In this document: piece by piece, positions 41,101 through 44,100 of the stretch
Layout of the letters: each line of letters begins with the position of its first letter
Position numbering within the stretch: the first letter of the stretch is position 1
Source: Eledone cirrhosa
Lineage: Eukaryota
DNA length: 64,000 bases
Direction: 5' to 3'
Assembly: GCA_964016885.1 (NCBI GenBank)
Contig: OZ024763.1
Span: forward strand, 13,516,001-13,580,000
Translations under genes and position numbers: made by a program
Notes under the pieces: model-generated
What the model saw: the letters and a program-made list of their open reading frames with translations, nothing else
Databases searched by the model: none
What the model was told of the DNA's origin: nothing

Positions 41101-44100
41101 AGCTGGATGCCCTTCCTAATACCAACCTCATTTATAGTGAGTGCTGGGTACTTTTTTTTTCCGGGCGCCTACACGTCCACTTTACAGTGTGGGCTGGGTG
41201 CTTTTTTGCCATGGCACCTCCACAACCACTTTGCAGTGGGAGGTGGTGCGGGCATATTGTCTATATGCTTCAGCTTCGGCTTGTACCCGTGTGTGTGTGT
41301 ATTACTGCGGGACGCCAGAGGTCATGGCCTTTGAGAAGTGCAATTGGGTACGGTTGGCATACACAGATATATATATATATATATATATACAATATATAGA
41401 GGGGAAAGACACAGAAGAGTGTGTCTTTCATTACAGTGGTTTGAAATTCCTGTAATGAAAAACACACTCTCCTGTGTCTTTCCCCTCTATATATTGTATT
41501 TTAAAGTGCCCAGGAAAACTATTTCCTTTGAGTTCATTTAATTACAGGATTATACGCGAGTCCTTTGCTCCGTTATTTTTACTTGATATTTGCTCCTTGA
41601 ATAGTATAGGCTGCCATTTCTAGCAGCTTGTTCTGTTCACGCCACCGGCTACTGCTCCATGCGAAGGGTGGTTTATTTTAGTTCTCTCTCTAGTAGTGCG
41701 GACAATATCGGCCTTCCACATGCTGATGACCCACAGGGCCGTATTGGAACCCACTAAAATGGCGAAACATTCTCCTGGTGAGTGAGTACATCTGTGATTT
41801 AGGTGAGGTTGGTTTCTCATTTCAATTTATACTTTTAATTTTAATGTTTTACCAATGCCTCTAGTAGCTTATATTCTCTTCACGCTGGTGGTTTGAAATT
41901 CCTGTAAAGAAAAACACACTCTCCTGTGTCTTTCCCCTCTATATATTGTATTTTAAAGTGCCCAGGAAAACTATTTCCTTTGAGTTCATTTAATTACAGG
42001 ATTATACGTGAATCCTTTGCTCTGTTATTTTTACTATATATATATATATATATATATATATATATTGTTATACTTTGGGAGGGTCATGTTGCCAATAAGA
42101 AACACACGCACCAGTTGCTTTCACTTCAATTTATTATATATTTATAAATTTATAAATTTACAAATCTACAAATTTATAAATTTCTGGTTGGTTGGTTGGT
42201 TCCACAATCAGATAGTTGTTTATATATAGTCATAGTCCTTTCGTCACACACTCTGTGACCTCTTCAGTGTATATATATATATACACAAAAGGAAGTATAG
42301 CATAATCAAAGCTCTGGCTGCAGCTAAGCTAACGAATGCAATCGGGATGTGCAGCTAAGCACTCAATAAGGTATTTTACCTTAGAGTTATAACATTACGT
42401 TTAGACGGCTTTGCAAATTGAAGACAGCGACCAATAAGCCAGCCGCAGGGACCAAAGCAACGAAAAAAAAACTGATTCAGGAAAATATGACAAACGTATA
42501 TATATATATTACATGCATACATACATACATACATACATACATACATACATACATACATACATAGCGACTGATCTGGAGGAGAGATATGGAATAAAGCCCG
42601 ATATAAATCTCTCACCCAGAGAAATCGGAAGATCCTATTCAATGTTCAAACAAGAAAAAAAAATTGACCAATTTACAGAAAAAGTTGTGCATGGATACTT
42701 GAGGCGTAAAACACAGACCATAGAGGGGATAAACCACTCAAAAAGCCTGGCATGGAGTTCCGACAAGTTTATGACATCACACCTTGAGGGATATCTCTAT
42801 GCAATACAGGAACAAGAACTCCCTACCAAATATCTGCTGCACAAAAGAGGAGGGCCAGCAGCTGACAATAAATGTAGGCTATGTAAAACAAAGATCGAGG
42901 ATGTAAGCCACATTGTTGCCAGCTGCGAAAGAATGTCATCTCGCTACTACCTCCCCATGAGACACGATGGGATAGCTAGAACCATCTGGAACGCACTTCG
43001 GAAAACAAAATCAACAACAAACGAGGAAGAATATATTGAGACAGATGGCACTAAGGAATACTGGTGGAACCTGAAAATAAAAACTGCCACCAAATTAAAG
43101 CACAACCGGCCTGATATTGTAGTTTGGGACCACACATTGAAAACGTGTTCTGTTGTGGAGATCAGCTGCCCACTTGATGTAAACGTTGTCAGAAAAATAC
43201 AGGAGAAGGAGGACATCTACGGACCATTGATGAGGAGTTTACAAATCCAGTATCCAAGATACACCTTTAACTTCATACCCATCATTATTGGTGCTACGGG
43301 TTATATACCAACCCGCTTGGACCAAAGTATGACTGAACTTGGATTTGCGGACAAAAAGCGCAGCTCCCTAATTCATAGTCTACAAATGGCTGCGATAGCT
43401 GGCACCTTCAAAATTTGCAAAACATTCAAGGGATGACAATTTCTTTTCTTTTACAACCTTGCCACCAGGAAGGTGGCCGGTCAAAAAATATACTCAAAAT
43501 TAAGAGAAAGAGGAAACATACATACATACATACACATGCTCAGTACTGTAACAAAGGTGAACATTGATCTTTGCACACTAATATATAGACATATATTAAT
43601 ATAATATACACCAATGGAAAGTTTGTTATTGTTGGTTGACATACATACATATATAAATACATGCATATATATGTACATACATGCACACATGAATACATAT
43701 TTACTTACACACTTATACATATAACATACATACATGCGTGTATATATACATACACATACATATATACATACACACAAACATATACGCATATATACATACA
43801 TATATTCAAACACACATACACATATACATACATATACACATATACATACACATATATATATACGTATATATACATATACACATATACACATACACATATA
43901 CATACAAATATACATACATACATACATATATACATACACACATACATACATATATATATACATAAATACATATATACACATATACATGCATATACATATA
44001 TATATAGACACATATACATACATACATACACACATACATACATATATAATACATACGTATGTATGTATTATATATGTATGTGTGTATGTATATAAATATG

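What the first reader, a model, noticed from the sequence alone, without database searches (positions are those of the whole stretch)
41387..42035. Compact element: inverted stub, direct repeats about 453 bp apart and an internal hammerhead
The layout is (TA)n, a 49-bp inverted copy of the repeat start, repeat 1, a spacer of about 300 bp with CTGATGA...GAAAC...GTA, repeat 2, then (TA)n. This equals about 1.3 tandem units of a non-coding monomer of about 453 nt with one ribozyme per unit. That is the footprint expected from reverse transcription of a circular or tandem ribozyme RNA (non-LTR retrozyme model) or of a Penelope pLTR (inference).
Basis: partly seen in the sequence, partly recalled or inferred. 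Interest (0 to 1): 0.72.

Follow-up and report, generated by a model that had tools for sequence, protein, structure and literature searches.

The report
Hammerhead retrozyme with two-armed Penelope insertion
This is one damaged copy of a dispersed family of 510-base non-coding repeats that carry a hammerhead motif (predicted to cut its own RNA) and sit in TA microsatellites as two back-to-back arms ending at two fixed points, a layout that suggests a borrowed Penelope-type retrotransposon enzyme copies the RNA, likely a small circle, from both ends of a DNA break.

Summary
The layout is real, with corrections: stub 50 bp, repeat spacing 452 bp, and a true unit of 510 nt (this copy lost 31 + 27 nt). 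It belongs to a dispersed, ORF-less family (331 matches of one 28-mer) within a superfamily with 1,422 hammerhead-pattern matches and units 63-96% alike. Arms end at two fixed sites, A and B, about 85-90 nt apart, against (TA)n; 5' ends vary. In head-to-head insertions with both ends classifiable, one arm ends at A and the other at B in 45 of 46 loci here and 22 of 22 in a 544-nt sister family. Protein-coding Penelope-like elements (PLEs) of this genome do the same (7 of 7). The type I hammerhead is supported by an invariant core and a compensatory stem I change, but this copy's motif is degraded. Best reading: a non-LTR retrozyme moved in trans by a Neptune-type PLE. A circular template fits but is unproven: no RNA run was available and the partner family was not identified. 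The class is known, and this scan noted the same layout earlier on other DNA.

The parts
41367..41386 (.). Left (TA)n target microsatellite
41387..41436 (-). Arm A: inverted, 5'-truncated 50-nt arm (unit positions 15-64) whose 3' end, site A, faces the left (TA)n; its inner end falls in the family's hot spot for A-arm 5' ends (positions 5-25)
41436..42041 (+). Arm B: 1.30 units (positions 1-510, then 1-154), 3' end at site B (42035, merging into TA by 42041); 1-nt overlap with arm A at 41436
41436..41589 (+). Repeat 1 = first pass over positions 1-154, with internal site A (41499) and site B (41583-41589)
41596..41658 (+). Two private deletions relative to the family unit: 31 nt after 41596, 27 nt after 41657
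41717..41794 (+). Type I hammerhead motif: stem I 41717-41722/41789-41794, core 41723-41729 and 41764-41767, predicted cut after 41788; weakened in this copy by changes at 41785 and 41792 (and a subfamily change at 41771)
41888..42041 (+). Repeat 2 = second pass over positions 1-154; 41952-42035 is the 'tail' between sites A and B
42035..42065 (.). Right (TA)n target microsatellite

Best explanation
The element is a two-armed, 5'-truncated insertion of a dispersed non-coding 510-nt hammerhead repeat (a non-LTR retrozyme) that was likely copied into a TA microsatellite by a Penelope-like reverse transcriptase/GIY-YIG endonuclease supplied in trans, likely from a circular unit RNA. Shown: the repeat family, its unit, its two fixed 3' ends, the one-A-one-B rule, the TA target, the shared template type of both arms, and the lack of an ORF. 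Inferred steps: (1) a rare locus holding two intact hammerheads is transcribed, and the RNA self-cleaves and is ligated to a unit circle; (2) a Neptune-type PLE protein cuts both strands of a (TA)n tract; (3) each DNA end primes cDNA on the RNA, one at site A and one at site B, both predicted single-stranded and ending in UAU, which could pair with the TA end; (4) both cDNAs stop at variable points, often after more than one turn, and are joined head to head through short microhomology. The window copy is a dead product with one damaged hammerhead.
For: Family: 768 candidates, 40 scored; 331 matches of a tail 28-mer at up to 2 mismatches, control 0. Of 151 arms in 86 loci, 70 end at A, 57 at B, 24 elsewhere; 102 of the 127 A/B arms run into TA-rich sequence; of 55 inverted loci, 46 have both ends classifiable: 45 A+B, 1 A+A, 0 B+B (binomial P 4e-13). 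Sister family (544 nt, 63% alike): same ends, 22 of 22 classifiable inverted loci A+B, arms up to 2.98 units. Protein-coding PLEs with a CX4CxxC linker show the same: L110 and 7 of 7 two-armed loci among 25 copies of a second family. The signature (partial tandem, inverted 5'-truncated copy, one-sided tail, TA bias) is that of PLEs in PMC8557442; two RT start sites and cleavage of both strands were shown in vitro in PMC11167929. Hammerhead: core invariant except N7 in 27 sequences of several subfamilies; stem I U-A to C-G in 6 of 27; core intact in 65 of 85 family copies. For one unit template: passes within a locus share rare variants at 12-17% against about 2% between loci, same-arm equal to opposite-arm; no pile-up of 5' ends at the predicted cut (5 seen, 3.0 expected); 6 of 127 arms cross two cut sites; no long master array found in this family (longest 1.87 units).
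Against: No cleavage or expression data. The partner family is not identified: no similarity of the unit to 45 GIY-YIG loci or to 24 further copies of a second PLE family. The hammerhead lacks the usual G10.1-C11.1 pair (C.C here; U.U, A.C or A-U in relatives) and is not the minimum-energy fold: it costs 14.8 kcal/mol in the window copy, 8.0 in the family consensus, 3.4 in the sister consensus. Covariation within the family is weak (8 doubly changed cells of 1,562), and 15 of the 27 sequences in the wider alignment were found with patterns or stem I requirements that favour the motif. The folding z-score is not strand-specific (sense -3.1/-3.6, antisense -2.8/-3.0). Shared variants could also come from gene conversion or from a linear dimer transcript; the longest sister array has mosaic variants. 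In this copy the stub differs from both direct repeats at one subfamily site (position 36). Loci were partly chosen by match length, so arm lengths are biased upward.
Confidence: 0.75

Rival explanations
1. Same element and same PLE enzyme, but the template is a linear, uncleaved more-than-unit transcript (or linear monomers joined by template jumps) and no circle exists; the hammerhead is a passenger.
For: No arm of this family reaches 2 units. The hammerhead is not the favoured fold. In PMC11167929 unprocessed RNA was the main substrate in vitro. The 5'-end hot spot at positions 5-25 (A arms: 19 seen, 4.4 expected) could be a transcript start.
Against: 5' truncation would shorten a linear-only lineage each round, yet the same closed unit persists across subfamilies 63-96% alike. 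The core is kept while the rest diverged. Successive passes share rare variants as often as opposite arms do. No gaps at the cut-site positions in 85 passes (insertions not tabulated).
Confidence: 0.17
2. The element is only the 5'-truncated terminal repeat (pLTR plus tail) of an autonomous Penelope-like element.
For: Tail, inverted arm, TA target and type I hammerhead are all pLTR features (PMC8557442, PMC4209133); most PLE copies are short 3' stumps.
Against: Past site B the sequence runs back into the same unit, not into an ORF; longest stop-free frame of the closed unit is 66 codons. No PLE ORF joined to an arm's 5' end in 87 loci, which include the places of all 28 and all 45 exact pattern matches; no shared upstream sequence attributable to the element among 39 free 5' flanks. 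One chimera among 40 sister loci is inverted and B+B.
Confidence: 0.05
3. L1-style twin priming on a single linear pass of one RNA made the inversion, so the arms are complementary, non-overlapping parts.
For: Both arms come from the same template type; 10 B arms stop near site A (6.5 expected).
Against: 37 of 41 clean two-armed loci have a B arm that runs through site A, and the excess near A is not significant (P 0.12); in the window both arms cover positions 15-64.
Confidence: 0.02
4. Local duplication and hairpin formation at a microsatellite, a MITE, or an assembly artefact; chance hammerhead-like words.
For: Contigs of three public runs did not bridge this copy's private junctions (a hole proves nothing).
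Against: Hundreds of dispersed copies with the same ends, controls 0; inner junction differs from locus to locus, unlike terminal inverted repeats.
Confidence: 0.01

Closest known systems
Metazoan non-LTR retrozymes (Cervera and de la Pena 2020, PMC7229834, parts 2-4 of 6 read; Li, Clavereau and Pollet 2026, 10.64898/2026.07.22.740005, parts 1-3 of 5 read)
   Same: Non-coding unit with one type I hammerhead, head-to-tail more-than-unit copies, GC under 50%, predicted self-paired RNA, co-existence with PLEs; a mismatch at the base of helix II has a precedent (axolotl HHR_Amex2, U.U).
   Different: Unit 510-544 nt (170-400 nt in PMC7229834; 51-972 in the preprint); dispersed copies mostly under two units rather than satellite arrays; long helix III; fixed two-site ends and a one-A-one-B inverted layout, which the parts read do not describe for retrozymes; circRNA and cleavage untested here.
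EN+ Penelope-like elements, Neptune type (Craig et al. 2021, PMC8557442, passages and sections 11 and 15 read)
   Same: Partial tandem, adjacent inverted 5'-truncated copy, tail at one end only, (TA)n target without discernible TSD, hammerhead in the terminal part.
   Different: No RT/GIY-YIG ORF; tail 84-90 nt rather than 30-40 bp; the whole element is a closed unit.
Poseidon PAc of Anolis in vitro (Frangieh et al. 2024, PMC11167929, parts 1-2 of 4 read)
   Same: Two internal RT start sites define the tail; AT-rich target; both strands cut and extended.
   Different: PAc start sites are reported as not homologous to the cut DNA, whereas both sites here end in TAT and merge into the TA tract; the A+B pairing per insertion is quantified here, not there; PAc is autonomous.
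Non-autonomous Chlamys PLEs such as MRC1 (passage in PMC8557442)
   Same: Non-coding, head-to-tail insertions with PLE ends.
   Different: [quoted passage not shown]

Membership tests
Non-LTR retrozyme | Small non-coding repeat unit, no ORF, no LTR/PBS/PPT | tested here: met
   510-nt closed unit, longest stop-free frame 66 codons, no blastx hit to 6 PLE proteins
Non-LTR retrozyme | One type I hammerhead motif per unit | tested here: met
   Core and three stems, stem I compensatory change; non-canonical 10.1-11.1; no Rfam match
Non-LTR retrozyme | Tandem copies with at least two hammerheads (the 'active' criterion of the 2026 preprint) | tested here: inconclusive
   Window copy: not met (one motif). 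Family: 6 of 127 arms cross two cut sites, none has two whole units. Sister family: arms of 2.4-3.6 units
Non-LTR retrozyme | Self-cleavage of the RNA | not testable with these tools
   Only folding energies
Non-LTR retrozyme | Expressed as linear and circular unit RNA | not testable with these tools
   No run on record as RNA was listed
Penelope-like insertion signature | Partial tandem with variable 5' truncation and an adjacent inverted 5'-truncated copy | tested here: met
   55 of 86 loci inverted; 40 of 127 arms longer than one unit
Penelope-like insertion signature | Tail at one end only (two fixed 3' ends) | tested here: met
   45 of 46 and 22 of 22 A+B; tail longer than the published 30-40 bp
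Penelope-like insertion signature | (TA)n target | tested here: met
   102 of 127 A/B arms followed by TA-rich sequence
Autonomous PLE | RT + GIY-YIG ORF linked to the pLTR | tested here: not met
   0 of 87 family loci with an ORF joined to an arm's 5' end; one inverted chimera in the sister family
Non-autonomous derivative of a named PLE family | Sequence similarity to the pLTR of an autonomous family | tested here: inconclusive
   None in 45 GIY-YIG loci or 24 further copies of a second family; only a small part of the thousands of PLE places was read
MITE / DNA transposon | Fixed terminal inverted repeats with a fixed interior | tested here: not met
   The two ends differ (A and B) and the inner junction varies

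The most novel reading that the evidence does not exclude
A lineage of ~500-nt circular ribozyme RNAs has persisted and diversified in this genome as a protein-free replicon without sequence ties to any PLE, and its insertions record the Penelope mechanism directly: an asymmetric enzyme pair primes both ends of a TA break on the same RNA circle, always once at site A and once at site B, which would explain the long-unexplained one-sided tail and inverted pLTR.
Probability: 0.4. Interest if true: 0.75.

Novelty: new member of a known kind. Interest (0 to 1): 0.5.

Why it matters
How animal retrozymes are mobilised, and why Penelope-like elements leave an inverted copy and a one-sided tail, are open questions; the 2026 preprint links the two by co-occurrence and pLTR similarity in Xenopus. 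Here the link is read from the insertion footprint, with a near-strict pairing rule (67 of 68) shared with protein-coding PLEs of the same genome. A 510-nt RNA with two defined start sites is a compact substrate for the existing in vitro PLE assay. The window copy itself is an ordinary dead insertion.

Tried and rejected
Rfam: no gathering-level match in the window; the E-value scan gave only miRNA-like hairpin hits to the stub. No RNA holder listed; the three runs of unknown kind gave contigs with many family variants and strand-switch joints and no splice or circle evidence. Partner search: two arms 2.9 kb apart proved to flank a later hAT-type insertion; three hammerheads about 3 kb apart proved a local duplication without PLE ORF; PLE ORFs near L130, L144, L145 and L240 belong to other families sharing the TA tract. 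The chimera L242 (sister arm joined head to head to a PLE arm) was considered as co-integration but is B+B with a 13-nt repeat at the junction, next to a very abundant family (32,238 candidates), so a secondary event is as likely. Run-off at the hammerhead cut: no excess. A possible splice donor inside stem III is not kept in the sister family. A long sister array (3.6 and 3.05 units on either side of an unreadable stretch) has mosaic variants and was not used as proof of rolling synthesis. Rows dropped: L128, L191 (near-identical duplicates), L056 and L029 (local repeats, dropped), loci fetched twice. Paper searches listed no paper describing this family or the A+B rule for retrozymes; subscription papers, Repbase/Dfam and all supplements were not seen and may hold it.

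Full report
Observation. Rfam does not detect the motif and the window stretch does not fold into it by itself.

Family. The stretch has many dispersed relatives (768 candidates, 40 scored). Aligning 23 copies gives a closed unit of 510 nt; the window copy lacks 31 and 27 nt. A tail 28-mer matches 331 places at up to two mismatches, control 0. I mapped 86 loci (score-ranked hits plus the places of two exact patterns): 151 arms, 70 ending at site A (unit positions 50-70, mode 64), 57 at site B (141-157), 24 elsewhere. 102 of 127 A/B arms run into TA-rich sequence. 5' ends are scattered, with a hot spot at positions 5-25 for A arms (19 seen, 4.4 expected) and none at the predicted ribozyme cut (5 seen, 3.0 expected). 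55 loci are head-to-head; of the 46 with both outer ends classifiable, 45 are A+B, 1 A+A, 0 B+B. Junctions mostly overlap by 0-6 nt. The window element is one such A+B insertion: a 50-nt A arm and a 1.30-unit B arm.

Superfamily. A degenerate hammerhead pattern found older subfamilies 64-85% alike with the same unit and ends. A sister family has a 544-nt unit, 63% identical, the same two ends, 22 of 22 classifiable inverted loci A+B (39 loci, 25 inverted) and arms up to 2.98 units. A superfamily pattern matches 1,422 places, control 0; 18 further loci from this list were read and showed no linked PLE ORF.

Hammerhead. In 85 family passes the core is intact in 65 and about half as diverged as the rest (2.8% against 5.4%); stems are 93.8% paired against 17-60% when slid, with little covariation. 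Across 27 sequences of several subfamilies the core varies only at N7 and stem I changes U-A to C-G in 6; the sister family, found by DNA similarity, supplies that change, but 15 of the rows came from patterns that demanded core and part of stem I. Position 10.1-11.1 is C.C, U.U, A.C or A-U, never the G-C that PMC4209133 (passages) calls highly conserved; a U.U there self-cleaves weakly in axolotl (PMC7229834). The fold costs 14.8 kcal/mol over the free minimum in the window copy, 8.0 in the family consensus, 3.4 in the sister. Hammerhead numbering is recalled. The unit folds better than shuffles (z -3.1 linear, -3.6 circular, 40 shuffles; antisense similar). Of 90 confident family pairs, 53 are unchanged in the sister, 8 changed on both sides, 9 on one side, 18 broken, 2 gapped; sites A and B are predicted unpaired in both (0.69-0.83 against 0.42-0.44) and both end in TAT before TT.

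Mobilising machinery. The genome has thousands of GIY-YIG candidates and long RT + GIY-YIG frames with a CX4CxxC linker (938 and 1,096 aa), the linker that PMC8557442 ties to Neptune/Nematis and to TA targeting; clade names here rest on that motif, not on a tree. One such locus (L110) has an A arm and a B arm about 45 nt apart, and a second, very abundant PLE family has two fixed ends with 7 of 7 two-armed loci A+B among 25 copies. No PLE terminus resembling the unit was found, no ORF is joined to an arm's 5' end in 87 family loci (six query proteins of one group; for the second family) and 39 free 5' flanks share no sequence attributable to the element. One sister arm is joined head to head to a PLE arm, but as B+B, so it is not counted as proof of partnership.

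Template. Passes within a locus share rare variants at 16.6% (same arm) and 15.9% (opposite arms) against 2.2% between loci; sister family 16.1%, 12.6% and 1.8% without the long array; subfamily sites match at 87-94% against 53%. Both arms and successive turns therefore come from the same template type. With no run-off at the cut and persistence of a closed unit despite 5' truncation, a circle is the simplest reading (inference; proposed for PLEs in PMC4209133 and for retrozymes in PMC7229834). Gene conversion or linear dimers are not excluded. Exact twin priming on one pass is not the rule: 37 of 41 B arms cross site A. No RNA run was listed.

Comparison and verdict. It works like, and on the testable features is, a non-LTR retrozyme with a PLE insertion signature; it is not an autonomous PLE. 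Cleavage and circular RNA, two defining features, could not be tested. Papers seen: PMC7229834 parts 2-4, 10.64898/2026.07.22.740005 parts 1-3, PMC11167929 parts 1-2, PMC8557442 passages and sections 11 and 15, PMC4209133 passages; no supplements, which may list such families. Seven searches listed no description of this family or of the A+B rule in retrozymes. The scan's own notes report the same layout for other families in this and other genomes, none by sequence for this one. New member of a known kind, useful because it makes the PLE tail and inversion mechanism testable; interest 0.5.

Noticed in passing
window 42066-42269 (-): 3' end of a different, far more abundant hammerhead-bearing repeat sharing the right (TA)n; truncated at the start of its hammerhead core; its end motif matches site A of the PLE family of L242-L267.
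   Followed up: partly
window about 34871 to 6900 (-): Exons of a sugar-transporter (Pfam Sugar_tr, GLUT-like) gene at about 34871, 31100, 27700, 20244, 16113 and 7100; the element lies upstream of the first exon seen, main arm antisense to the gene.
   Followed up: partly
window 42513-43436 (+): 307-codon C-terminal fragment of a non-LTR retrotransposon (Pfam zf-RVT; restriction-like endonuclease look, recalled).
   Followed up: no
L242:501-3760 (G000:C2:407459500-407467500): Head-to-head chimera of a sister-family retrozyme arm and a 5'-truncated protein-coding PLE arm, both ending at their B sites, with a 13-nt repeat at the junction.
   Followed up: partly
L202 (G000:C4:220352400-220358300): Sister-family array of 3.6 and 3.05 units with an A stub and a B end; one variant in all passes, others in mosaic subsets.
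   Followed up: partly
L166, L171 (G000:C1:373065566, C2:379373669): Another, unrelated short hammerhead repeat with an inverted layout in TA tracts.
   Followed up: no
L059:3411-5813: A hAT-like transposase element (423-codon frame) inserted between the two arms of a family copy.
   Followed up: partly
L097:3309-6122, L099:1775-5062: Long open RT + GIY-YIG frames (938 and 1,096 codons) of Neptune-type PLEs, candidates for an in vitro assay.
   Followed up: partly
L127 and L128 (G000:C4, 55 kb apart); L222: Family and sister copies multiplied by local segmental duplication rather than by new insertion.
   Followed up: no
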